Source: Escherichia phage Gostya9
Direction: 5' to 3' (one strand)
Sequence record: NC_047979.1
Length of the DNA stretch: 64,000 nt
A program made the translations under genes and the position numbers. The stretch's first letter is position 1. Each line of letters begins with the position of its first letter. Positions 2,966-59,297 of this stretch are shown here, piece by piece. Under the pieces are notes generated by a model. That model had not been told where the DNA came from. It saw only the letters and a list, made by a program, of their open reading frames with translations, and searched no databases.

Positions 2966-4107
2966 AGGAAATCTCCAAATTCATTGCCCAGATCTTTTAG
3001 AGTATCAGTAGAAGTCTCAGTTACCTGACCTACACGATAGGCTGCACCAATCTGGATTTCTTGTGGAGCAGGCTGTAGAGAAGTAGTATCCAACCAGTTC
3101 ATGATCCACGGAATAGGGTTTTTAGTGATTACTGGTAAGTGACTAGGCCATTCTACGCCAATGTGCATAAACGCGTTACGTCCCACAAAGTACAGGTACT
3201 CTTCTAGCAGTTCTGCATTCAGACCAATCAGACTGCGACCTTTGAAAATGAAATGACCCCATTCAATTTCAGTTTTCAGAGTTTTCAGGAGCTGTGCTGG
3301 TGCTTTAGCCACTGCCTCATCTACCAGATCTTTGTCAAACTGCTGGAACATAATCTGGATGATTGTTTTAGACATCTGGGTGTGCAGAGCTTCATCTTTA
3401 GCGATCAATTGCAGATTTTTAGCGATACCTTGCAGAATATCGTTCTCTGCTAACGCAAAGGTGCACGCAAAGGATGCGTAGAATTGCATTGCTTCCAGAC
3501 CGTAGATTGCAAAATAAGCATCTAACAGTTTAGCCTGAGTTTCACGCTTAACTTCAGGGAACTCAGTTTCTGGGTACGTATTGTCACCACGATGATCACG
3601 TACTGCGATGAAATACTGACCTAACTGGTACAGTTCATCGAACAGCTCAACAGAATCTGCGATACGTGCAAATGCTTCTTGGTTTTTAGTTACAGAATCA
3701 ATAAATTCTGCCGGATCAGTCAGCACATTACGAATAATGTTACTATAAGCACGGCTATGCAGGTCTTCAAAGTAGCTCCACTGCTTGAGCATACCTTCTA
3801 GTTCTGGACGGCTTACCAGCGGCATAATAGCTGCTTCAGGCGCTCGACTGATAAAGGAATCAGTTTGAGTCTGCCATGCTAAGTTCAGGAGTGTGATTTC
3901 CTGAATTTCACGTGGGAGATTGGGCCATTGTTTCTTATCGGCTTCTAAACTGATTTCTGTCTCAGTCCAAAATTGCGAGCGTTGCAGAAGTGCCAGACGC
4001 TCTAATTCTGGGTGTGCTACGCGTACATAATCTGCGATACCTAGAGAATCGCCCAGGAAAAGATCAGCGTTAGTATGATCCCAATTCAGGTTTAGTAAAG
4101 TAGTCAT
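2962..4107 (-). CDS. nrdB: Ribonucleotide reductase class Ia beta subunit
   Basis: 381-aa ORF with ferritin-like diiron architecture (EALH ligand block); adjacent to nrdA. Confidence 0.85.
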   Translation of the reverse strand: MTTLLNLNWDHTNADLFLGDSLGIADYVRVAHPELERLALLQRSQFWTETEISLEADKKQWPNLPREIQEITLLNLAWQTQTDSFISRAPEAAIMPLVSRPELEGMLKQWSYFEDLHSRAYSNIIRNVLTDPAEFIDSVTKNQEAFARIADSVELFDELYQLGQYFIAVRDHRGDNTYPETEFPEVKRETQAKLLDAYFAIYGLEAMQFYASFACTFALAENDILQGIAKNLQLIAKDEALHTQMSKTIIQIMFQQFDKDLVDEAVAKAPAQLLKTLKTEIEWGHFIFKGRSLIGLNAELLEEYLYFVGRNAFMHIGVEWPSHLPVITKNPIPWIMNWLDTTSLQPAPQEIQIGAAYRVGQVTETSTDTLKDLGNEFGDFL

Positions 4108-6887: not shown

Positions 6888-7649
6888 CTACACCTTCCCC
6901 ATGTCTTTAAAAATATCGTAGAATGCTTTAGACTCAGCAGAACGAACGTTATCAATCAATTCGATCATTGAGAATGGGGCATTTTCATACTTCTCATAAA
7001 CTTCCATAAGAAGTGCTAGACCTGAGTCACCTTTAATGTCTTTTTGGGCTATATCTCCACAGATAATTAAACGGCAGTCTTGTCCTACACGAGTTAGGAG
7101 ACAAACCATTGCCTCAACGGAAATATTCTGAGCTTCATCGACAATTACATAGGAGTTGTTGAAAGTTCTGCCACGAGCATGTTCTATAGCCAAAAATTTA
7201 ATTTTCTGACGTTCGACATATCCCTTATAGGCGTGATCACCGATGGCCCATTTCATACCATCAGCTATTGGCTCCAACCAAGGCTCTAGCTTTTCTGCTA
7301 GATCACCAGGAAGCATACCAAGAGACTTACCTAGAGGTTCATTAGGACGGACGAGAATCACTTGCTCAATATCTGAGTGAGTGTCTACGAGTTCCTGAGC
7401 TGCAAGAACGGACGGGATAAAGGTTTTACCAGTACCTGGCTCACCGATACCCACAGTCACTGTGTTGTTCTTGATCATATTGATATATGATTTTTGCTCG
7501 CGGTTTTTACCTACTAGGGATTTAGCAACTGGGTTGACGTAATCATTAGAAAAATCAGCCTGAATTACGTTACTCTCATATTTGTTGCCACGCTTTCTTG
7601 AACCATTGCGGTTCTCTCTTTTTTGACGTGCTTTTCCCATAAATAACAC
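6888..7649 (-). CDS. phoH: PhoH-like ATPase
   Basis: Walker A GIGEPGTGKTF and Walker B IVDEAQN; typical PhoH length. Confidence 0.9.
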   Translation of the reverse strand: MLFMGKARQKRENRNGSRKRGNKYESNVIQADFSNDYVNPVAKSLVGKNREQKSYINMIKNNTVTVGIGEPGTGKTFIPSVLAAQELVDTHSDIEQVILVRPNEPLGKSLGMLPGDLAEKLEPWLEPIADGMKWAIGDHAYKGYVERQKIKFLAIEHARGRTFNNSYVIVDEAQNISVEAMVCLLTRVGQDCRLIICGDIAQKDIKGDSGLALLMEVYEKYENAPFSMIELIDNVRSAESKAFYDIFKDMGKV

Positions 7650-7716
7650 TCCTATAGTGTACTTCGCTTCTAACAGAGGATCAACAAAAAGATCTTGTTT
7701 ATCAACTTACAAATAT

Positions 7717-7745
7717 ATTATACCAGTATATATAGTAAAAAGCAA
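7717..7745 (-). promoter_or_regulatory. Early promoter with extended -10 on minus strand, upstream of phoH
   Basis: Reverse complement reads aaaattgtagTTGCTTtttactatatatacTGGTATAAT. Confidence 0.5.
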
Positions 7746-7882
7746 CTACAATTTTAAATAAGCCTATGATATTGCATTTAAATAAAAAATTTGCTTGCTT
7801 ATAAAGGTAGAAATATGATACTAGATAATCATTTATTTATACGCGAAATATTACAGTATTAGATGGCGAAAGAAAAATTTAA

Positions 7883-7911
7883 TTGACATAGTGGGTAATA
7901 TTTAGTATAAT
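7883..7911 (+). promoter_or_regulatory. Consensus sigma70 promoter TTGACA-17-TATAAT upstream of nrdD
   Basis: Exact consensus hexamers with 17-bp spacer, followed by a ~130-nt leader before the nrdD ATG at 8045. Confidence 0.6.
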
Positions 7912-8044
7912 AAGTGTAAAAATTCTGAGGAGAAAACTAACCCACAGTAACTACTGTAAAGAGTAGAACTGTCAGTACAGAAGTTTTAACGGGGTATAGA
8001 GGTCCTCGGTACTGTAGCTACAAAATTTATAGAGGAAATAATTA

Positions 8045-9871
8045 ATGACAGAGAATGAATTAATTGAGAATTGCAAAGGTCTGCTCACTCTAACTGCGGA
8101 TAAAGACTTACAACATAATAATGCTAATAAGCCTAGTGAGATGTTCCATACTCAAAGAGACTTATTGGCCGGAGAAATCAACAAGTATTTAGTATCGCAG
8201 GAATTACCCAAACATCTATTAGACGCCCATAATCTAGGTAAGATACACATTCATGATATGGATTACAGAGCGCAGGGGTACACTAACTGTTGCTTAGTAG
8301 ACCTTGGTGGCATGCTGAAGAATGGTACTAAAATTGGTAATGCAAATATTGAAACTCCTAAATCCATAACTACTGCATGTGCAATCACTGCCCAGATTAT
8401 TGCACAAGTATCTGGTGCTCAGTATGGTGGCACCTCTATTGATCGTATCGACGAGGTTCTAGCCCCGTATGTCAGAAAGTCTTACAATAAACATCTGGGT
8501 CGTGGTCTACGTTGGCTCAAGGATGAAAGAAAAGCTGCCGTGTACGCTACTGAGCTTACTGAAAAAGAGTGTTATGATGCATTCCAAGCTCTAGAGTATG
8601 AAACTAATTCATTATTTAACTCTAACGGGCAGACTCCTTTTGTTACGCTTGGCTTTGGGCTAGGACAGGGGTGGGAGGAAAGGATGATTCAGAAAGCCAT
8701 CCTCCAAAATCGTATTAAAGGTTTAGGTGCTGCTGAGTCAACCCCTATCTTCCCTAAACTAGTATTCTCAGTTAAAGAAGGATTAAATAAAAATCCAGGG
8801 GATCCTAACTACGATATAAAACAGCTAGCACTTGAGTGTTCTGCTACTCGTATGTATCCAGACTATTTAAGTTACGAGAAAGTTGTAGCTGTTACTGGTG
8901 ATTTTAAAGCCCCTATGGGTTGTCGTAGTTTTTTATCTGCTATCCCCTCTGGAGAAATTGCAGGGCGTAATAATTTAGGTGTAGTGTCTATCAATCTACC
9001 TATGGTTGCTGCTGAGGCAGATGGAGTTTTTGAAGATTTCTGGGATATTCTAGACAAATATGTGGATGAGGCTTTTGAAGCGCATGACTTCTTCTTAAAC
9101 AGACTGAAGAAAGTTAAGGCTAAACAAGCCCCTATTCTTTATATGCACGGCGGTTTTGGTGTACGTTTAGATGGGGAAGAATATGTATGGCCTATTTTTG
9201 AAGGTAGATCTTCTGTATCTCTTGGGTACATTGGGGTCTATGAGATGTGTCAAATAATGTTTAGTTTACCACAGACTCATAGGGACTGTATTGAGTTTAC
9301 AGAGGAAGTTCTCACTCACCTAAAAAATCGTTGCGAAGTTAAAGCTAACGAGACTAATCTTGGGTTTAGCTTGTATGCAACTCCTAGTGAGTCTCTATGT
9401 AATCGCTTTAATAAACTACTGGAACGTAGATTCCCAGAGTATTCTTGGCTAACAGATAAAGGCTATCTCACTAATAGTCACCATTTGGACGTAAGAGAGA
9501 AGGTAGCTCCGGATACTAAATTTGAGTATGAAGCTCATTTCACCAAAATAGCTAATGGTGGTAATATATCGTTTGTGGAACTACCACAAATGAAAAAGTT
9601 CCATAAAGCTCTTGAATACGTAGTAGATAAGGGATTAGAATGTAGCCATTATATTGGTGTTAATATACCAATTGATGAGTGCTTCAACTGTGGGTATATG
9701 GGTGAATCTGTTGCCTCTGAACGTGGGTTTGTATGTCCGAGTTGTGGATCTGAAGAAATAGAGGTTACACGTAGGGTTTGTGGGTACCTGGGATCCCCGG
9801 GCAGTAGGCCTTTCAATTCTGGGAAACAAAAAGAAGTGCTTGGTAGAGTAAAACACTTAAATCTTAAGTAA
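8045..9871 (+). CDS. nrdD: Anaerobic ribonucleoside-triphosphate reductase
   Basis: C-terminal Zn ribbon (CFNCG...CPSCG) followed by the glycyl-radical motif RVCGYLG. Confidence 0.9.
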   Translation: MTENELIENCKGLLTLTADKDLQHNNANKPSEMFHTQRDLLAGEINKYLVSQELPKHLLDAHNLGKIHIHDMDYRAQGYTNCCLVDLGGMLKNGTKIGNANIETPKSITTACAITAQIIAQVSGAQYGGTSIDRIDEVLAPYVRKSYNKHLGRGLRWLKDERKAAVYATELTEKECYDAFQALEYETNSLFNSNGQTPFVTLGFGLGQGWEERMIQKAILQNRIKGLGAAESTPIFPKLVFSVKEGLNKNPGDPNYDIKQLALECSATRMYPDYLSYEKVVAVTGDFKAPMGCRSFLSAIPSGEIAGRNNLGVVSINLPMVAAEADGVFEDFWDILDKYVDEAFEAHDFFLNRLKKVKAKQAPILYMHGGFGVRLDGEEYVWPIFEGRSSVSLGYIGVYEMCQIMFSLPQTHRDCIEFTEEVLTHLKNRCEVKANETNLGFSLYATPSESLCNRFNKLLERRFPEYSWLTDKGYLTNSHHLDVREKVAPDTKFEYEAHFTKIANGGNISFVELPQMKKFHKALEYVVDKGLECSHYIGVNIPIDECFNCGYMGESVASERGFVCPSCGSEEIEVTRRVCGYLGSPGSRPFNSGKQKEVLGRVKHLNLK

Positions 9872-12118: not shown

Positions 12119-12547
12119 ATGTTCAATAATGTATTCTCTAAAGAAGCTAACCCAATATTGGTTAATTTTTGGCGTACTCTTCCAGCCAACCTGTACAATG
12201 AGGCTATTAATGCTCTGAAAATATGGTGTGAGAATAATGAAATCTCCTTTGCTTTTAAGGATGAGATTGAAGAAGCTCCCTGTATTGGTTTAATTGTGCA
12301 GGTAGAGGATGGCTTTGAAGAGATTGTCGGCTGGAAAGAGTTGGATGAAATGGGATTGGTTTTTGCATTAAACTATAAGCTGTTTATGCCTAATAAACAC
12401 CGTATTGTTGTTAATTATAAAACCAGTGAATCTCCTGGTTTTCAAGTTAATGAACATTACGGTTGGTCTTACTCACCGGAAGAAGTAAATGATGGTATCC
12501 AAAGACTTCGTCGTTTTGGTTATCAAATTCCGGGTTTAACTGCCTAA
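12119..12547 (+). CDS. Hypothetical protein, paralog A of a tandem pair
   Basis: Shares with the next ORF PC(I/V)G...(W)xEL..MGL(V/I)xAL(N/D)..LF.P and a C-terminal G(Y/I)(Q/Y)(I/V)PGL block. Confidence 0.55.
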   Translation: MFNNVFSKEANPILVNFWRTLPANLYNEAINALKIWCENNEISFAFKDEIEEAPCIGLIVQVEDGFEEIVGWKELDEMGLVFALNYKLFMPNKHRIVVNYKTSESPGFQVNEHYGWSYSPEEVNDGIQRLRRFGYQIPGLTA

Positions 12548-12556
12548 GGGGGCACA

Positions 12557-12949
12557 ATGGAACAAGTATATTGGCGTCAGATTGATCCTAGTTTGGTGAA
12601 GAGTGCGGAGAAGCTGCTACAACGTTGGTTGGGGGTAAGACAAGCCTCCTTCACTTTTCCGGAGCAGCAAATAGACGATCCCTGTGTTGGTGTTTTCCTA
12701 TCAGGCTACGCTAGGGAAGTGGAATTGGATTGGAATGAATTGTCTGCTATGGGTTTAATTGTTGCACTAGATTTCTCTTTGTTCCATCCAAGTGGTTTGG
12801 CAATATGTCGTGTGCCTGATGACGGTTGTTCGCCCCATCTTTTACAGGTGGAAGATAATATTTGGGAGTACCCTCCAGATATTCTCAAAGAAGCTAAAGA
12901 ACAATTAAATCGTGTTGGGATTTATGTTCCAGGCCTGAATGATGAATGA
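12557..12949 (+). CDS. Hypothetical protein, paralog B of a tandem pair
   Basis: See paralog A; gggggc RBS before the ATG. Confidence 0.55.
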   Translation: MEQVYWRQIDPSLVKSAEKLLQRWLGVRQASFTFPEQQIDDPCVGVFLSGYAREVELDWNELSAMGLIVALDFSLFHPSGLAICRVPDDGCSPHLLQVEDNIWEYPPDILKEAKEQLNRVGIYVPGLNDE

Positions 12950-12972
12950 TTTTTATTAGCTGAACTCTGATT

Positions 12973-13000
12973 ACCGAGTCATTTTGGCTCGGTTTTCTCT
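12973..13000 (+). terminator. Rho-independent terminator
   Basis: accgag / ctcggt stem followed by tttctct. Confidence 0.45.
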
Positions 13001-13040
13001 ATGCTCAAAGACACTGGTAGCAGCATCCGGAAAATTTTAC

Positions 13041-13069
13041 TTGCATGATGCCCAAAATCTTGATATAAT
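13041..13069 (+). promoter_or_regulatory. Early promoter TTGCAT-17-TGaTATAAT with no ORF behind it for about 600 nt
   Basis: aaaattttacTTGCATgatgcccaaaatctTGATATAATatttatattgaattgagagac; downstream 13070-13666 has no ORF of 60 aa or more on either strand. Confidence 0.5.
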
Positions 13070-13666
13070 ATTTATATTGAATTGAGAGACATTAGTAAAA
13101 ATTGATTTTGCTAATTTTTCTTAGTGAAGCTGACAAGGGATTTACGGCGAGAGGAATCGATGACCCGTAAATAGCTGCATAAGGTACGTTGCTAGAGCTT
13201 TACGAAAAAGTTTTTTCTTGTTTACAATCCGCGATACGGAACAGTTAGGCTGCCCCATTAAGGGTTGTTTTAACTGTTACGTGTTAGTTTTTAAACAACT
13301 AATTAATAGAATACTTAGCGATCTGCGTCCCATAGGAACCCTGGTAAGGCCTCGAAGCAACCTAGTATGAGGTGGTTGTGAAGTGAGATGGGAGGAGTGA
13401 AAAACTACCGAGACGTGATTCTGTAAGTTATATTGCATCTAGTATGAGCTAGTATATGAAGCATTAGGTGAGCAAATCTGGCTTAGCGGCCATCCTCAAG
13501 GATTTGTGCGGTATAATGAGGCAGCAGCGCAGCGTGAAAGTGGAAGTTGCCACCCCACTTCAGTATTTGCAATTAATTTGTTGAGAAATTGACAGTAACA
13601 GTTGTTCTATTCTTTCTGAATAGTCCTAAAGAAAACTTATTTCATTTCCAACACAGGAGTATTGTT

Positions 13667-16456
13667 GTGTTTTCAATCCTACAAGGTCATGCAGGATTTC
13701 ATCGCGATTTAGCCACGGGCAATTGGCGAGAAGTTAAAGCAGAAGATTATCTTTTTGCTAAAAGATTTTCCTCAAAGCATCCTGAAGGTAAACCAGCTTC
13801 AATGCCCTTCAAGTTTGATGTAATTGACGAAGTTGATCCTCAAACCCTAGTAGAAATGCTCCCTCTTATGAGACGTTTAACGTCTGACCCTCATATCGTT
13901 GCGGTACGAGGTCGATGTCTTGCACCTAAAAATAATGTGCGGCGTAAGAAGGGCAACTTTAATGTATCTAATCCTAGTAATATTATTGCTATGGACGTGG
14001 ATGGTATTGTAGATACAGGTGGTTGTAACAAGTTTGATCTTGTTGGCATGGCTCGACATATTATTAGGATGTTAAATAGTATTAGTGAGGATATGTTTCC
14101 TCTTGATGCAGGGTTTATTGCTCATGCATCGTCTTCGGCTGGGCTAAAACCAGGTATCCGAATGCACTTAATACTAGAATCTAATGTTAAAGTAACTCAG
14201 GGTCAAATCAAGTTCTTATTTACATCTATCAACGAAAGTAGTAGACAAAAGTATGGCTTTGATATTGCCGACTTAGCTTATTACTCTTCCGTACAGCTCC
14301 ATTATTTTGCAGATCCTCTATTTATTGATGGTATAGTTGATCCGTTTAAAGCGGAGGGTGCTTCACGTCTGGTATTTGTTAAGGGTTCTAAAGTAAATTT
14401 ACCTAATAATCTAGTTGACTATGAAACAACTAGAGGAGAGTTTAAAGAGGAATTCTACTCTTTACTCGATCAAATTAAAGGTAAAAAAGCTGCCTCTGAT
14501 AAAGTAGAGGAAACTATCAGTGAGCTAGAAGAGGCTGATGATGGGGTATACTTACGTATTATTCCAAAGCTATATCACCGAGCGTTAGAGGATGGGGTAG
14601 ATTTTGGTTGGCTAGAAAAAGAAATCCGCCCAGCTTTATCAGAATATATTGCAACTAAAGATAATAGCCGTAATATTCAAGACTACTTTAACAACGGTCG
14701 AAAACAGGCTCTGAAAGCATTTGTTAATAATTCTAAACGTGATATACCCGATGTTTTAAAAGGTATTCCGCTTAAAAAGCTAGAAACTAATTCACTAGAG
14801 ACCGACAACTTCTTGAAATTAAATACTGTACCACCAGAAGGCTATATGACTTTTGTAAAAGCAAGTCTAGGTACAGGTAAAACCACGGCGGTTGTGCGTT
14901 GGCTGGATTCAGGAGTTATTAAAGGTAATTTCTTAGCAGTTACCAACACTAGAGCACTGGTATCTTCAAATGCTAAGAAATTTAGTGCAGGACAATACGA
15001 TAAGTCTGTAGATATGCTTAATTTTAAGCGTGGTGCTATTGACCGTATGTCCACAACCATTCACTCTTTGCATAAGTTTAAGAGTTTTATTGGTCAAATT
15101 GATGCAATCTTTATAGATGAATGTGATGCAGTAATGAATGACCTATTATTCGCCCCGGTTGTTAAGCAACGTCGTGAGTGTATTCAGGTTCTTCGTGATA
15201 TTCTTGCAACTGCAAAAATCATTATACTATCCGATGGTGATATTAGTGCCGAGACGATTGAAGCATATGGTTCTTTGATTGAGTTCGATAAACCAGTTGC
15301 ATTCTATAATCATCACCGTAAGATGCTGTCAAAAGCTCATGCTTATGAGTTCCCTGATGAGTCCAGTATTTGGGTTGCACTTCAGACTTCTCTAGAGATG
15401 GGTGAGAAATCTATTCTAGTATCTGATTGTGGCCCTGATGAGCTGAATGAGAAGGGTATGGCACTACGTCGTAATACTGGTGCATTAGTTAAAGAAATCC
15501 ATTCAAACTCCACTTCAGATGTGGATATTCGACGTATTCTGGATTATACAACTAATGAGCTAATTGATCAACAAATTGATTGCTTATTATGTAGTCCATC
15601 CGTAACGAGTGGTGTTGACTTTAACTATTTCGATAATGTATTTGTTATTACTAGAACCAGTAATCAGGCGCCAAACATGCGTTTTCAAGCAATCAGGCGC
15701 GACCGTGGTGCTCAGAATATCTATTATTTTATTGATAAATCCACTAGTGGATTCTCTGCGGGTTCTGAACAATATAATATCGATGAAGGTTGGCTGGAGT
15801 TAGCACAGCAATTATATGCACGTCGCAGGGAGCTGGAGTCTAGGAACTATACTAGTACTTTACGTTATTACTTGCTTGATCAGGGTGCAACTATTGATAT
15901 TTTCAGTGAAAGCTGGGGAACTATTGAAGGTGCTGGTAAAGAATACACAGAAGAGCGAATCAAAGCTATTCTACATTCAACTCCTGATTATTGTGCTCCA
16001 CGTCATGCGGATGCGTATGAGGCTAAACTACTTATTGTTCGCTATTATCATCTTGAGTCTATTAAAGATGTAACAGTTGAGCATGTTGAACAATATATCA
16101 AAGATAAGCCGAATGATCGAGCTGCATTCTTCCATAAGATGCACGAGATGTTCTGGGAAGATATTAAGAAGTGTTCAAATGTGACCATTAAACCATTCAT
16201 AGAAGCTCTGAAAGGTAAGAAGAAAGATTTCTTCCTTAAAACAGGTCAGAGTGCTAACCCAAAATATGCTAGAATGTATCTTGGTATGATGGGTATTGGT
16301 AAAGATATGAACACGGAGAATATCGTAGACTGGTATAGAACCTACTGCAAAATCGAATGTATGCCAATTCCTTTCAAATTCATGACAGAAGAAGAGAAAG
16401 CTATGGCAGAAGAAGCAATGTCAGAGCTAGGTGCTAGAAATGACAGTGAAGAATAA
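13667..16456 (+). CDS. Large replication ATPase, origin-binding-helicase-like
   Basis: Walker A KASLGTGKTTAVV and Walker B IFIDECDAV in the middle of a roughly 930-aa protein. Start placed at GTG 13667 (aggag RBS 7 nt upstream); the track begins at TTG 13589, so the start is uncertain. Confidence 0.6.
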   Translation: MFSILQGHAGFHRDLATGNWREVKAEDYLFAKRFSSKHPEGKPASMPFKFDVIDEVDPQTLVEMLPLMRRLTSDPHIVAVRGRCLAPKNNVRRKKGNFNVSNPSNIIAMDVDGIVDTGGCNKFDLVGMARHIIRMLNSISEDMFPLDAGFIAHASSSAGLKPGIRMHLILESNVKVTQGQIKFLFTSINESSRQKYGFDIADLAYYSSVQLHYFADPLFIDGIVDPFKAEGASRLVFVKGSKVNLPNNLVDYETTRGEFKEEFYSLLDQIKGKKAASDKVEETISELEEADDGVYLRIIPKLYHRALEDGVDFGWLEKEIRPALSEYIATKDNSRNIQDYFNNGRKQALKAFVNNSKRDIPDVLKGIPLKKLETNSLETDNFLKLNTVPPEGYMTFVKASLGTGKTTAVVRWLDSGVIKGNFLAVTNTRALVSSNAKKFSAGQYDKSVDMLNFKRGAIDRMSTTIHSLHKFKSFIGQIDAIFIDECDAVMNDLLFAPVVKQRRECIQVLRDILATAKIIILSDGDISAETIEAYGSLIEFDKPVAFYNHHRKMLSKAHAYEFPDESSIWVALQTSLEMGEKSILVSDCGPDELNEKGMALRRNTGALVKEIHSNSTSDVDIRRILDYTTNELIDQQIDCLLCSPSVTSGVDFNYFDNVFVITRTSNQAPNMRFQAIRRDRGAQNIYYFIDKSTSGFSAGSEQYNIDEGWLELAQQLYARRRELESRNYTSTLRYYLLDQGATIDIFSESWGTIEGAGKEYTEERIKAILHSTPDYCAPRHADAYEAKLLIVRYYHLESIKDVTVEHVEQYIKDKPNDRAAFFHKMHEMFWEDIKKCSNVTIKPFIEALKGKKKDFFLKTGQSANPKYARMYLGMMGIGKDMNTENIVDWYRTYCKIECMPIPFKFMTEEEKAMAEEAMSELGARNDSEE

Positions 16457-58794: not shown

Positions 58795-59297
58795 AGCTAC
58801 TTAGAAAGATTACTATATCCTCTAGGGCAACATTGAGATTCCATCTAATGTGGTATAGCATATATGACCCTTATTGTGTTATAGATGTAGTTTTTATTAG
58901 TATAGTTATTTGATAGCACATACCCTATTCTGAGTATTTTGGCTTTAATAGCTACATCTAGTGATATAGTGTAGAGGTGTAATGTGGTGTTGCTTCCCAA
59001 ACGTGTGCTCTCTGGCATTTAAATACTGTTTTTGTACGTTGGTTTACATATTCACCGACAATTTGGATTCCACGATCAGCTAATCTAATATTTATATCTT
59101 TTATTGTTAGCTTTTGTCGACCCGTAGAATCTCCTACACCTCATGTAGAGCATTAATTTTTTCTTGTTTACGTTCTATTATGGGAGAAGTTCTCCCGATC
59201 AATGAATATAGTATACATAATCGTATCGAATTTGTAAAGGGGATTTTAAAATACAGGAATGGGATACCAACTGAGTAGTATCCCATCCTATACTTAT

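What the first reader, a model, noticed from the sequence alone, without database searches (positions are those of the whole stretch)
12950..13666. About 700 bp without ORFs, behind a strong promoter and in front of the large replication ATPase
A terminator (12973-13000) and then a consensus-like early promoter (13041-13069) are followed by roughly 600 nt with no ORF of 60 aa or more on either strand. The stretch contains several hairpins, for example atttacgg...ccgtaaat at about 13153-13187 and gttgtttta...ttaaacaac at about 13266-13305, and an internal TATAAT near 13523. It sits directly upstream of a Walker A/B ATPase of the origin-binding-helicase type. It could encode a small RNA, a structured leader, or the replication origin.
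Basis: inference. Interest (0 to 1): 0.5.

Follow-up and report, generated by a model that had tools for sequence, protein, structure and literature searches.

The report
Large structured leader RNA in T5-like phages
The ORF-free stretch is not empty spacer but encodes a roughly 0.5 kb, intricately folded RNA, conserved by compensatory base-pair changes across T5-like phages and transcribed from a strong early promoter just ahead of the phage's replication helicase gene; no such RNA family is in Rfam or in the papers I could search.

Summary
The window is a T5-like phage (Tequintavirus). In detail: terminator 12973-12993, T5-type early promoter (-35 13041-46, -10 13064-69), then about 590 nt with no conserved ORF, then the UL9-like helicase gene (true start GTG 13667). 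It is the largest ORF-free gap in the 64 kb. The stretch is a conserved structured RNA on the + strand: a 5' hairpin (13083-13123), an optional 97-nt accessory module (13115-13211), and a roughly 390-nt multi-helix core closed by a roughly 37-bp long-range rod (13272-13315 with 13562-13603). The core sequence differs about 40-50% between phage lineages, yet the helices are kept by double-sided changes: 63 of 150 pairs in one lineage group and 46 of 139 in another, versus about 20 in shuffles. Short loops (UUAGCG, GUUGCCACC) are nearly invariant. Rfam, tRNA scan, RNase P comparison, E. coli genomes and literature gave nothing. No iterons, DnaA boxes or AT-rich unwinding element were found. The function is not shown. 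I favour an RNA element acting in cis on the helicase transcript (processing, stability, translation). A replication primer or cofactor RNA and a trans-acting phage RNA remain live rivals. New RNA family; interest high.

The parts
12973..13000 (+). Intrinsic terminator that ends the upstream DUF7415 gene block (stem 12973-12993 plus T-run)
   Evidence: annotated at the same place in T5; stem nearly invariant in relatives
13030..13069 (+). T5-type strong early sigma-70 promoter: A/T-rich upstream stretch, -35 TTGCAT 13041-13046, 17-nt spacer, -10 TATAAT 13064-13069. Predicted start at about A13076.
   Evidence: The same promoter architecture precedes the leader in every T5-like lineage examined. 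The start site is inferred, not mapped.
13083..13123 (+). P1, the 5'-terminal hairpin: UGAGAGA.AUUAGUAAAA, loop AUUGA, UUUUGCUAAU.UUUCUUA
   Evidence: MFE folds of window and T5. A hairpin is kept at the same place with different sequences in L046, L047, Sugarland, L038 and Proteus types. Annotated as a 'terminator' in phage Stitch.
13115..13211 (+). Optional 97-nt accessory module, bounded by the direct repeat TTTTTCTT.
   Evidence: Present in window, K38, Salmonella phage 1586 and phiR2-01; absent from T5, Stitch and others. Found in 49 phage records, one copy each; located at this locus in every genome inspected. Fold.
13212..13221 (+). Pyrimidine tract UUUUUCUUGU. Candidate 5' strand of an outermost closing helix with AAAGAAAA 13629-13636, or alternatively with the Shine-Dalgarno region ACAGGAG 13653-13659.
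   Evidence: RNAalifold gives one pairing in the T5-like group and the other in the window-like group. Support is weak: 2 double-sided changes each. Tentative.
13224..13268 (+). P2, a three-tier hairpin: ACAAUCC/GGGUUGU, GAU/AUU, GG/CC, CAGU-UAG-GCUG. It lies within a 63-nt block that is nearly invariant in Tequintavirus and Epseptimavirus.
   Evidence: helices 2-3; helix 2. Compensatory changes seen in L046, L047, L066 and Sugarland.
13272..13315 (+). 5' strand of P3, the long-range closing rod
   Evidence: Pairs with 13562-13603 (25 + 5 + 7 bp). Helices 4-5 have 14 pairs with double-sided changes; helix 3 has 11.
13318..13328 (+). 5' strand of P4/P4': GCG, AU bulge, CUGCGU
   Evidence: Pairs with 13527-13535 (GCGCAG-CGU). 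Eight sequence versions in 11 lineages, all fully paired, with the 2-nt bulge kept.
13329..13526 (+). Multi-branch interior of the core. Helices: 13329-33/13388-92; P6 13357-62/13374-79; P7 13394-98/13404-09; conserved junction GAGACGUG 13411-13418; P5 13427-35/13509-17; P8 13436-43/13463-70; Ha outer 13472-78/13501-07; Ha inner GGC-UUAGCG-GCC 13480-13491.
   Evidence: (helices 7-18). GCUUAGCGGC is invariant in all Markadamsvirinae, Sugarland-type and L038/L039, and CCUUAGCGGG occurs in Proteus phages.
13527..13535 (+). 3' strand of P4/P4'
13538..13560 (+). Hb hairpin: AAGUGG/CCACUU with the conserved loop AAGUUGCCACC
   Evidence: helix 19; helix 17. Eight stem versions. The loop motif GUUGCCAYC / GUGACCACC is kept in most lineages.
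13562..13603 (+). 3' strand of the P3 closing rod
13607..13623 (+). P11 hairpin: CUAUUC-UUUCU-GAAUAG, inside the invariant 3' block
   Evidence: variants in Sugarland, L038, L066, L046
13649..13669 (+). Ribosome-binding region of the helicase gene: small hairpin CAACA/UGUUG (13649-53/13663-67) with AGGAG 13655-13659 in its loop; start codon GTG 13667-13669
   Evidence: C-to-U changes keep the pairing.
13667..16456 (+). Downstream gene: UL9-like SF2 helicase. It is T5.108 'replication origin binding', the bipolar helicase called D2 in Wong et al. 2013, and D1/repA in the DT57C annotation.

Best explanation
**What it is**

The stretch is the gene for a large structured RNA. It is made as the 5' part of the early transcript that also carries the helicase gene.

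**Transcription**

Host RNA polymerase starts at about 13076 from a T5-type strong early promoter. The RNA then folds into these parts:
- a 5'-terminal hairpin (P1);
- in this phage, an extra 97-nt accessory hairpin module;
- a conserved three-tier hairpin (P2);
- a roughly 330-nt multi-branch core closed by a roughly 37-bp rod (P3);
- a small hairpin (P11).

About 30 nt further on lie the Shine-Dalgarno sequence and the GTG start of the helicase.

**Shown:** the RNA fold is under selection on the + strand across T5-like phages.

**Inferred mechanism (about 45% likely)**

The element acts in cis on the helicase message.
- P1 protects the 5' end.
- The long double-stranded rod is a natural RNase III target. 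Cutting there would separate a stable folded core from the mRNA and set the 5' end of the mRNA.
- The fold, or a factor bound to its invariant loops, thereby sets how much helicase is made early in infection.

That a functional structured RNA exists here I hold at about 90%.
For: **Identity and position**
- The window is a Tequintavirus. The leader is found in 534 phage records. It sits between the terminator/promoter and the helicase gene in every T5-like genome inspected across these lineages.
- There is no intrinsic terminator between the fold and the gene.

**Non-coding**
- No ORF is shared between lineage types beyond what DNA identity in the conserved blocks forces.

**Structure**
- Window-like group (A4): 150 pairs, 92.8% of cells paired, against 85.0% in shuffles and 37-46% when slid. 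63 pairs have changes on both sides, against 19.4 +/- 3.4 in shuffles (0 of 500 reach it) and 14-24 when slid.
- T5-like group (A6), independently: 139 pairs, 91.0% paired against 82.3%. 46 pairs have double changes against 20.6 (0 of 500), and 6-13 when slid.
- Hand table: P4 has 8 versions, Ha 11 versions and Hb 8 versions, all fully paired.
- The core differs about 40% between window type and T5 type, while length and helices are kept.

**Strand**
- G.U pairs make up 13-14% of paired cells. Pairing falls to about 80% if the fold is read on the minus strand.

**Thermodynamics**
- MFE z-score is -2.25 for the window and -2.16 for T5.

**Cis link**
- Adjacency and co-orientation with the helicase gene are kept down to 58-63% protein identity.
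- The Shine-Dalgarno sequence sits in a small conserved hairpin.
- The pyrimidine tract at 13212-13221 can pair with the region just upstream of, or including, the Shine-Dalgarno sequence.
Against: - No transcript data are available, so the start site, the 3' end and any processing are all inferred.
- A core of about 20 helices with invariant loops is far more elaborate than known translational operators.
- Proteus phages carry a second near-consensus promoter about 40 nt upstream of the helicase start, downstream of the fold. There the helicase can be expressed without the leader.
- One relative with 43% protein identity (L069) has only a short leader.
- The candidate anti-Shine-Dalgarno and outer closing pairings have little covariation (helix 1).
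- Both structures tested were derived by RNAalifold from the same alignments, which inflates the match to some degree. The lineages number about 10, not hundreds.
Confidence: 0.45

Rival explanations
1. Replication-initiation RNA. The strongly transcribed non-coding RNA forms a persistent RNA-DNA hybrid (R-loop), or otherwise serves as primer, loader or cofactor for the adjacent UL9-like helicase. The locus would then be the RNA-dependent primary origin of T5-like phages. This would work like ColE1 RNA II or the T4 ori(uvsY)/ori(34) transcripts.
For: - A strong promoter is followed by about 500-600 nt of non-coding transcript directly beside the only initiator-like helicase gene.
- RNA-helicase synteny is kept even where the helicase has its own promoter, as in Proteus phages.
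- In T5 the locus lies at 48.5% of the genome (59.0 of 121.75 kb). From memory, electron microscopy by Bourguignon et al. 1976 placed the first-round origin near the middle of the molecule. I could not re-read that paper.
- Wong et al. 2013 argue that this helicase is a replication initiator.
- ColE1 RNA II also depends on a conserved fold (established knowledge).
Against: - No unwinding element, iterons, DnaA boxes or long A/T tracts.
- The GC-skew sign change lies at about 7-8 kb of the window, not at 13 kb. This is weak evidence, because skew follows gene orientation.
- G+C content and skew of the leader are similar to those of the neighbouring genes.
- Nothing in the sequence marks an RNase H or primer transition site.
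- L069-type phages lack the long leader beside the same helicase.
Confidence: 0.2
2. Free-standing trans-acting phage RNA. It would be a large 'ornate' non-coding RNA, comparable in scale to ROOL or GOLLD, or a decoy or sponge against a host factor or defence system. It merely shares a promoter with the helicase gene, and the folded core, excised or stable, works elsewhere in the cell.
For: - Its size, closed-domain architecture and invariant loops suggest a 3-D fold with a binding partner.
- The core behaves as an exchangeable cassette between conserved flanks. Close relatives (window versus T5) carry cores only about 50-60% identical, and the window-type core is closest to L066, L046 and L047.
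- An independent helicase promoter exists in Proteus phages.
- Other large phage-borne RNAs of unknown function exist (PMC12286853, listed).
Against: - A trans-acting RNA does not need the strict adjacency and co-orientation with one gene across all lineages.
- No terminator defines a 3' end.
- No Rfam family matches.
- No complementarity of 16 nt or more to other parts of the window, and no match to E. coli genomes.
Confidence: 0.22
3. The conservation is at the DNA level only (a protein-binding site, packaging signal or nick signal), or the gap is neutral spacer whose apparent pairing is chance.
For: The 5' block (13212-13275) and the 3' block (13593-13640) are invariant or nearly so, beyond what pairing alone requires.
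Against: - Between the blocks the sequence is replaced while the pairing is retained, with 46-63 double-sided changes against about 20 expected.
- G.U pairs make the signal strand-specific.
- No repeats were found.
Confidence: 0.05
4. One or more micro-ORFs are the functional product. Examples are the 50-aa TTG ORF at 13218-13370 and the three small CDS annotated in phage FGS029.
For: Small ORFs of 30-53 aa exist on both strands. One submitter annotated three of them.
Against: - None is conserved between lineage types except where the DNA itself is identical.
- The annotated ones have no PHROG family.
- They use TTG or GTG starts.
- The substitution pattern follows helices, not codons.
Confidence: 0.03

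Closest known systems
ROOL and GOLLD (large 'ornate' RNAs, often phage- or prophage-borne; Rfam RF03087, RF01998)
   Same: A non-coding RNA of several hundred nucleotides with many covarying helices and invariant loops. It is carried by phages and its function is unknown.
   Different: No match to these or any other Rfam model. It sits in the 5' leader of a helicase gene rather than next to tRNA genes. Its host range is T5-like lytic siphophages of Enterobacteria. Oligomeric cage formation was not tested.
ColE1 RNA II; T4 ori(uvsY)/ori(34) transcripts; T7 primary origin promoters
   Same: A strong promoter drives a non-coding transcript of about 0.5 kb next to replication functions. For RNA II the fold is essential and is conserved by compensatory change.
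   Different: No sequence similarity. No unwinding element or recognisable hybrid-forming or RNase H site. Here the transcript runs on into a protein gene.
RNase III processing stalks (rRNA precursors, T7 early mRNAs, lambda N leader)
   Same: A long, nearly perfect duplex of more than 22 bp is formed by sequences flanking a folded RNA within a strongly transcribed phage early transcript.
   Different: Cleavage is not shown. The enclosed RNA is a novel roughly 260-nt multi-branch domain, not rRNA and not a simple hairpin.
Enzyme-partner RNAs encoded in the 5' UTR of their protein gene (IscB omega-RNA/HEARO, IS110 bridge RNA, retron and DRT ncRNAs)
   Same: A large structured RNA lies immediately upstream of, and is co-transcribed with, a nucleic-acid enzyme gene. 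The scaffold is conserved while internal segments vary.
   Different: No homology. The partner would be an SF2 helicase, for which no RNA cofactor is known. No guide-like complementarity was found in the window.
Riboswitches, T-box leaders and protein-binding translational operators
   Same: Position in a 5' leader. The Shine-Dalgarno sequence is close to structured RNA, and alternative pairings of a pyrimidine tract are possible.
   Different: Two to five times larger than these. No known aptamer matches. The one candidate switch I examined (13238-47 / 13271-80 / 13594-603) is not supported by covariation.

Membership tests
Any Rfam 15 family (including ROOL, GOLLD, RNase P, tmRNA, 6S, group I/II introns, riboswitches) | Covariance-model score at or above the family's gathering threshold | tested here: not met
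   Zero hits in the whole window at gathering score. The only hit on 12900-13750 was a chance snoRNA match at E = 7.5. No match fell within the leader or core of 10 diverged relatives at E <= 5; the three hits (best E = 0.0091) lay at the upstream gene end, terminator or promoter, far below gathering.
tRNA / tmRNA | Cloverleaf or tmRNA detected by ARAGORN | tested here: not met
   No gene found in 64 kb.
Bacterial RNase P RNA (type A) | Collinear similarity to M1 RNA including the conserved regions CR-I to CR-V | tested here: not met
   A few shared 8-11-mers occur (GAAGCUGAC and CAUAAGGUACG, both in the optional module). No RF00010 hit.
Conserved structured RNA (general criterion) | Base pairs maintained by compensatory substitutions beyond shuffled and slid controls, in independent lineages | tested here: met
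   (0 of 500 shuffles reach the observed values for four of five measures in each). (8-11 sequence versions per helix, all paired).
Conserved structured RNA (general criterion) | The transcript exists in infected cells | not testable with these tools
   Only a conserved strong promoter directly upstream. No RNA-seq of T5 covering this locus was found.
Cis-regulatory 5' leader of the helicase mRNA | Always upstream of, co-oriented with and co-transcribed with the regulated gene | tested here: inconclusive
   Adjacency and orientation are kept in all lineages that have the RNA, and there is no terminator between. However, Proteus phages have a bypass promoter.
Cis-regulatory 5' leader of the helicase mRNA | Conserved pairing that occludes or exposes the ribosome-binding site | tested here: inconclusive
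   A candidate UUCUUGU/ACAGGAG pairing and a small Shine-Dalgarno hairpin exist, but they carry almost no covariation (helix 1).
Iteron / DnaA-type double-strand replication origin | Repeated initiator-binding sites plus an A/T-rich unwinding element | tested here: not met
   Only short two-copy repeats. No DnaA boxes, no 13-mers, and the longest A/T run is 16 nt, at the -10 region. G+C is 0.30-0.48, similar to the flanks.
Transcript-primed (R-loop) origin, ColE1 RNA II / T4 ori type | Persistent RNA-DNA hybrid and a DNA synthesis start downstream of the promoter | not testable with these tools
   Positional arguments only. GC skew gives no support.
RNase III substrate | A double-stranded RNA segment of about 22 bp or more | tested here: met
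   P3: 25 + 5 + 7 pairs with small interruptions in the window. 30 pairs in the T5-like group. Cleavage itself was not tested.
Mobile element / MITE (for the 97-nt module) | Several copies at different sites | tested here: not met
   49 records carry it, one copy per record; it sits at this locus wherever the sequence was inspected. There is no other copy in the window.

The most novel reading that the evidence does not exclude
The RNA is a dedicated partner of the UL9-like helicase. The folded core, held by its invariant loops, would recruit or load the helicase and/or prime DNA synthesis at this locus. T5-like phages would then initiate replication through an RNA-specified origin, and the exchangeable core cassettes would define origin/initiator specificity types. 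That would be the first RNA cofactor for an SF2 origin-binding helicase. It would also identify the origin of phage T5, which to my knowledge has not been defined at sequence level.
Probability: 0.15. Interest if true: 0.92.

Novelty: new variant of a known kind. Interest (0 to 1): 0.72.

Why it matters
T5 is one of the classical coliphages, and its early promoters are standard laboratory tools. Yet this 0.5 kb element behind one of those promoters is left unannotated or called 'hypothetical protein' in the annotated records I inspected, although it is present in hundreds of genome records.

A large RNA with about 20 covarying helices and invariant loops almost certainly has a defined three-dimensional fold and a specific partner. 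Such RNAs are rare, and each one characterised so far (RNase P, OLE, omega-RNA, bridge RNA, ROOL/GOLLD) has revealed new biology.

Its fixed position in front of the initiator-like helicase makes two open questions directly testable in a tractable system. The first is how T5 controls and starts its very fast DNA replication. The second is what large phage-borne RNAs are for.

In practical terms, the finding corrects genome annotation of T5-like therapeutic phages. It also warns against using this 'intergenic' site for engineering insertions.

Tried and rejected
- **Rfam.** At gathering and at permissive thresholds, on the window and on 10 diverged relatives: nothing.
- **ARAGORN:** no tRNA or tmRNA.
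- **RNase P idea.** Prompted by shared 9-mer and 11-mer words: local alignment scores are not above shuffles.
- **Host origin of the sequence:** no blastn match in 5,426 E. coli genomes, even at E = 10.
- **Micro-ORFs:** not conserved.
- **Riboswitch-like switch.** The idea was that 13271-13280 alternates between 13238-13247 and 13594-13602. The middle segment covaries with the 3' partner only, and the 5' alternative acquires a mismatch in Epseptimavirus and is absent in L046.
- **Long-range pairing 13249-13260/13514-13525** (92% complementary in the window): not kept in T5.
- **Kissing of the UUAGCG loop with UGCUAA in P1:** not conserved.
- **Guide-like complementarity to the rest of the window:** only a 15-mer, T-rich match at 59157-59171.
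- **Iterons, DnaA boxes, unwinding elements and GC skew** as origin marks: none.
- **Distribution of the 5'-block motif.** A scan of 2.9 million viral contigs for ATACRGAACRGTNNGGCYG found the T5-like contigs plus 11 others. Those 11 lack every other motif and look like chance.
- **Metagenome scan with the helicase:** added only 12 loci.
- **A single MAFFT alignment across all lineages:** too poorly registered in the core for pair counting. I therefore analysed two lineage groups separately and linked them with a hand-made helix table.
- **Literature.** Seven full-text searches found no description of this RNA. The 1976 origin-mapping paper and one 2026 preprint could not be opened.
- **Not attempted:** a covariance model, because a full-length model exceeds the size limit.
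Full report
**What the window is**

The 717-nt finding matches 534 phage records, nearly all T5-like phages of Salmonella, Escherichia and Klebsiella. The best match is Salmonella phage Kenya-K38, at 95.8% over the full length. The downstream protein is 99.5% identical to that of Escherichia phage DT57C. In T5 itself (NC_005859) the homologous gap lies between T5.107 and T5.108 'replication origin binding'. A rho-independent terminator and an early promoter are annotated at the equivalent places there.

**Checking the observation**

The terminator is real: stem 12973-12993 followed by a T-run. The promoter is TTGCAT, 17 nt, TATAAT (13041-13069). The generic scanner skipped it because the T5-type -35 hexamer matches TTGACA in only 3 of 6 positions. 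It is homologous to the annotated T5 promoter, and an equivalent strong promoter precedes the leader in every lineage.

No ORF of 60 aa or more exists. 12950-13588 is the largest such gap in the 64 kb. The helicase ORF formally opens at TTG 13589. Alignment with T5 and AGGAG at 13655-13659 place the start at GTG 13667.

The internal TATAAT is at 13512-13517 and is not conserved.

The gene matches Pfam Herpes_ori_bp and solved UL9 structures only in its helicase core. It is the protein characterised as the bipolar helicase 'D2' by Wong et al. 2013 (PMC3632103).

**Anatomy from comparison**

Aligning ten Tequintavirus and Epseptimavirus phages shows five zones:
- an invariant promoter and first 40 transcribed bases;
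- a 97-nt segment present in only some phages, flanked by the direct repeat TTTTTCTT;
- an almost invariant 63-nt block;
- about 300 nt that fall into at least three very different sequence types but have the same length and contain an invariant GGCTTAGCGGCC;
- an invariant 45-nt block, followed by the ribosome-binding site.

Loci fetched through the helicase protein from IMG/VR, metagenomes and GenBank add further types. These are L046, L047 (probably My1-like), L066, Klebsiella Sugarland-type, L038/L039 and Proteus phages. Every one has a strong promoter followed by 470-760 nt without a conserved ORF before the helicase gene.

Vibrio T5-like phages also have 600-800 nt leaders. These share motifs among themselves at 41-52% identity. 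I did not establish homology of that form to the T5 form. One relative at 43% protein identity (L069) has only a short leader.

**It is a structured RNA**

Single-sequence folds of the window and of T5 give the same large features despite different core sequences. These features are a 5' hairpin, a long-range closing helix around the variable core, and a 3' hairpin, with z about -2.2.

I derived consensus structures with RNAalifold for two lineage groups separately and counted pairs with the dedicated tool.

| Measure | Window-like group, 11 sequences | T5-like group, 9 distinct sequences |
|---|---|---|
| Pairs | 150 | 139 |
| Cells paired, observed | 92.8% | 91.0% |
| Cells paired, shuffled | 85.0% | 82.3% |
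| Cells paired, 3' partners slid | 37-46% | 38-50% |
| Pairs changed on both sides, observed | 63 | 46 |
| Pairs changed on both sides, shuffled | 19.4 +/- 3.4 (0 of 500 reach it) | 20.6 (0 of 500 reach it) |
| Pairs changed on both sides, slid | 14-24 | 6-13 |
| Covariation score, observed | 0.284 | 0.291 |
| Covariation score, shuffled / slid | 0.148 / about 0.08 | 0.146 / 0.06-0.10 |

The two consensus structures share the same architecture.

Across all lineages a hand table confirms complete pairing in each version:
- P4: 8 sequence versions (for example CUGCGU/GCGCAG, CUACAU/GUGUAG, CUGUGU/GCACAG, CCAUAU/GUAUGG, CUAGAA/UUCUAG).
- The helix around the UUAGCG hairpin: 11 versions.
- Hb: 8 versions.

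G.U pairs make up 13-14% of paired cells, and pairing drops to about 80% on the opposite strand. The folded molecule is therefore the + strand, which is the strand the promoter transcribes.

There are caveats. The structures were inferred from the same alignments. The independent lineages number about ten. MAFFT mis-registers some rows.

**Not something already catalogued**

- No Rfam family matches in the window, and none falls within the leader of 10 diverged relatives.
- No tRNA or tmRNA.
- No significant similarity to RNase P RNA, despite a few shared words.
- No match in E. coli genomes.
- No small ORF conserved between types.
- The diagnostic 5'-block motif occurs only in T5-like contigs among 2.9 million viral contigs.
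- Seven full-text searches found no paper that describes it. In GenBank the stretch is left blank, or carries 'hypothetical protein' calls or a 'terminator' on P1.

**Layout in window coordinates**

| Element | Coordinates | Notes |
|---|---|---|
| P1 | 13083-13123 | 5'-terminal hairpin |
| Accessory module | 13115-13211 | self-contained hairpin domain 13124-13203; in 49 records, one copy each |
| P2 | 13224-13268 | three-tier hairpin |
| P3 rod | 13272-13315 with 13562-13603 | 37 bp |
| P4 | 13318-13328 with 13527-13535 | conserved 2-nt bulge |
| Interior helices | 13329-33/13388-92; 13357-62/13374-79; 13394-98/13404-09; 13427-35/13509-17; 13436-43/13463-70 | |
| Ha | 13472-78/13501-07 | encloses GGC-UUAGCG-GCC at 13480-13491 |
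| Conserved junction | 13411-13418 | GAGACGUG |
| Hb | 13538-43/13555-60 | loop AAGUUGCCACC |
| P11 | 13607-13623 | |
| Shine-Dalgarno hairpin | 13649-13667 | |
| Start codon | 13667 | GTG |

**How it probably works**

Shown: the fold is under purifying selection as RNA. It is co-oriented and contiguous with the helicase gene, with no terminator between them.

Inferred:
1. P1 at the extreme 5' end acts as a stabiliser, as 5' hairpins do in ompA and other long-lived messages (established knowledge).
2. The 37-bp rod is long enough for RNase III, which processes T7 and lambda early leaders and rRNA stalks (established knowledge). Cleavage would free the core and redefine the 5' end of the mRNA.
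3. The state of the fold, or a factor on its invariant loops, tunes helicase synthesis.

I give this cis model about 45%. Three points count against it: the sheer complexity of the core, the bypass promoter in Proteus phages, and the weak covariation of the candidate anti-Shine-Dalgarno and outer closing pairings.

**Rivals**

Against: no sequence hallmark of an origin.
- *Trans-acting large phage RNA or decoy, about 22%.* This fits the closed-domain, cassette-like behaviour and the Proteus promoter. It does not explain the strict synteny.
- *DNA-only conservation and micro-ORFs.* Both are disfavoured.

**Verdict**

It is a previously unannotated family of large structured RNA in a classical model phage. 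It is firmly supported as RNA by covariation. Its function is open but directly testable.

Noticed in passing
window 13115-13211: A 97-nt self-folding accessory module is inserted between P1 and P2, bounded by the 8-nt direct repeat TTTTTCTT. It is present in 49 of about 534 related records, from both Tequintavirus and Epseptimavirus, one copy per record. It duplicates the pyrimidine tract that forms the base of P1. It contains the words GAAGCUGAC and CAUAAGGUACG, which also occur in E. coli RNase P RNA; I judged these to be chance.
   Followed up: partly
L042, L048, L049 (Proteus phages), locus positions about 1435-1464: A second near-consensus promoter (TTGACA, 18 nt, TATAAT) lies about 40 nt upstream of the helicase start, downstream of the structured leader. 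This suggests the RNA and the helicase can be expressed separately in that lineage.
   Followed up: partly
L043, L050, L051, L056, L057, L058 (Vibrio T5-like phages), about 650-830 nt upstream of the helicase gene: These leaders are equally long and ORF-poor. They share motifs at only 41-52% identity (GGUAACUG, CGGAGGUA, GUAAGAGUG, GUGACUAACC, ACGUAGAGA). This is probably a second, distant form of the same RNA. GUGACUAACC resembles the Hb loop GUGACCACC of the Sugarland type.
   Followed up: partly
L052-L055, locus about 866-1170: In this distant lineage a roughly 100-aa ORF lies between the strong promoter and a roughly 290-nt structured-looking stretch that precedes the helicase gene.
   Followed up: no
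window 12119-12547 and 12557-12949: Two tandem paralogous genes (142 and 130 aa), each with two copies of DUF7415 (Pfam PF24187), lie immediately upstream of the terminator. They are homologues of T5.106 and T5.107.
   Followed up: no
window 7650-8044 and 58795-59297: These are the two other large gaps without an ORF of 60 aa or more (395 and 503 nt). The second contains a 15-nt identity (TTTTTTCTTGTTTAC, 59157-59171) with the start of the conserved 5' block of the leader. There is no further similarity.
   Followed up: partly
window about 7000-9000: GC skew changes sign here, from negative to positive, and changes back at about 36-37 kb. This probably reflects switches of gene orientation rather than an origin.
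   Followed up: no
L008 (phage AKFV33), locus 116-568: A homing endonuclease gene replaces the T5.107 homologue and the terminator directly upstream of the promoter. The promoter there has a different spacer sequence, but the leader itself is intact.
   Followed up: no
L002 (phage Stitch), locus 3143-3165: The upper stem of the P1 hairpin, followed by UUUUUCUU, was annotated by the submitters as a rho-independent terminator. It is A/U-rich (2 G-C pairs), so it would be a weak terminator at best. Early attenuation at P1 is conceivable.
   Followed up: no
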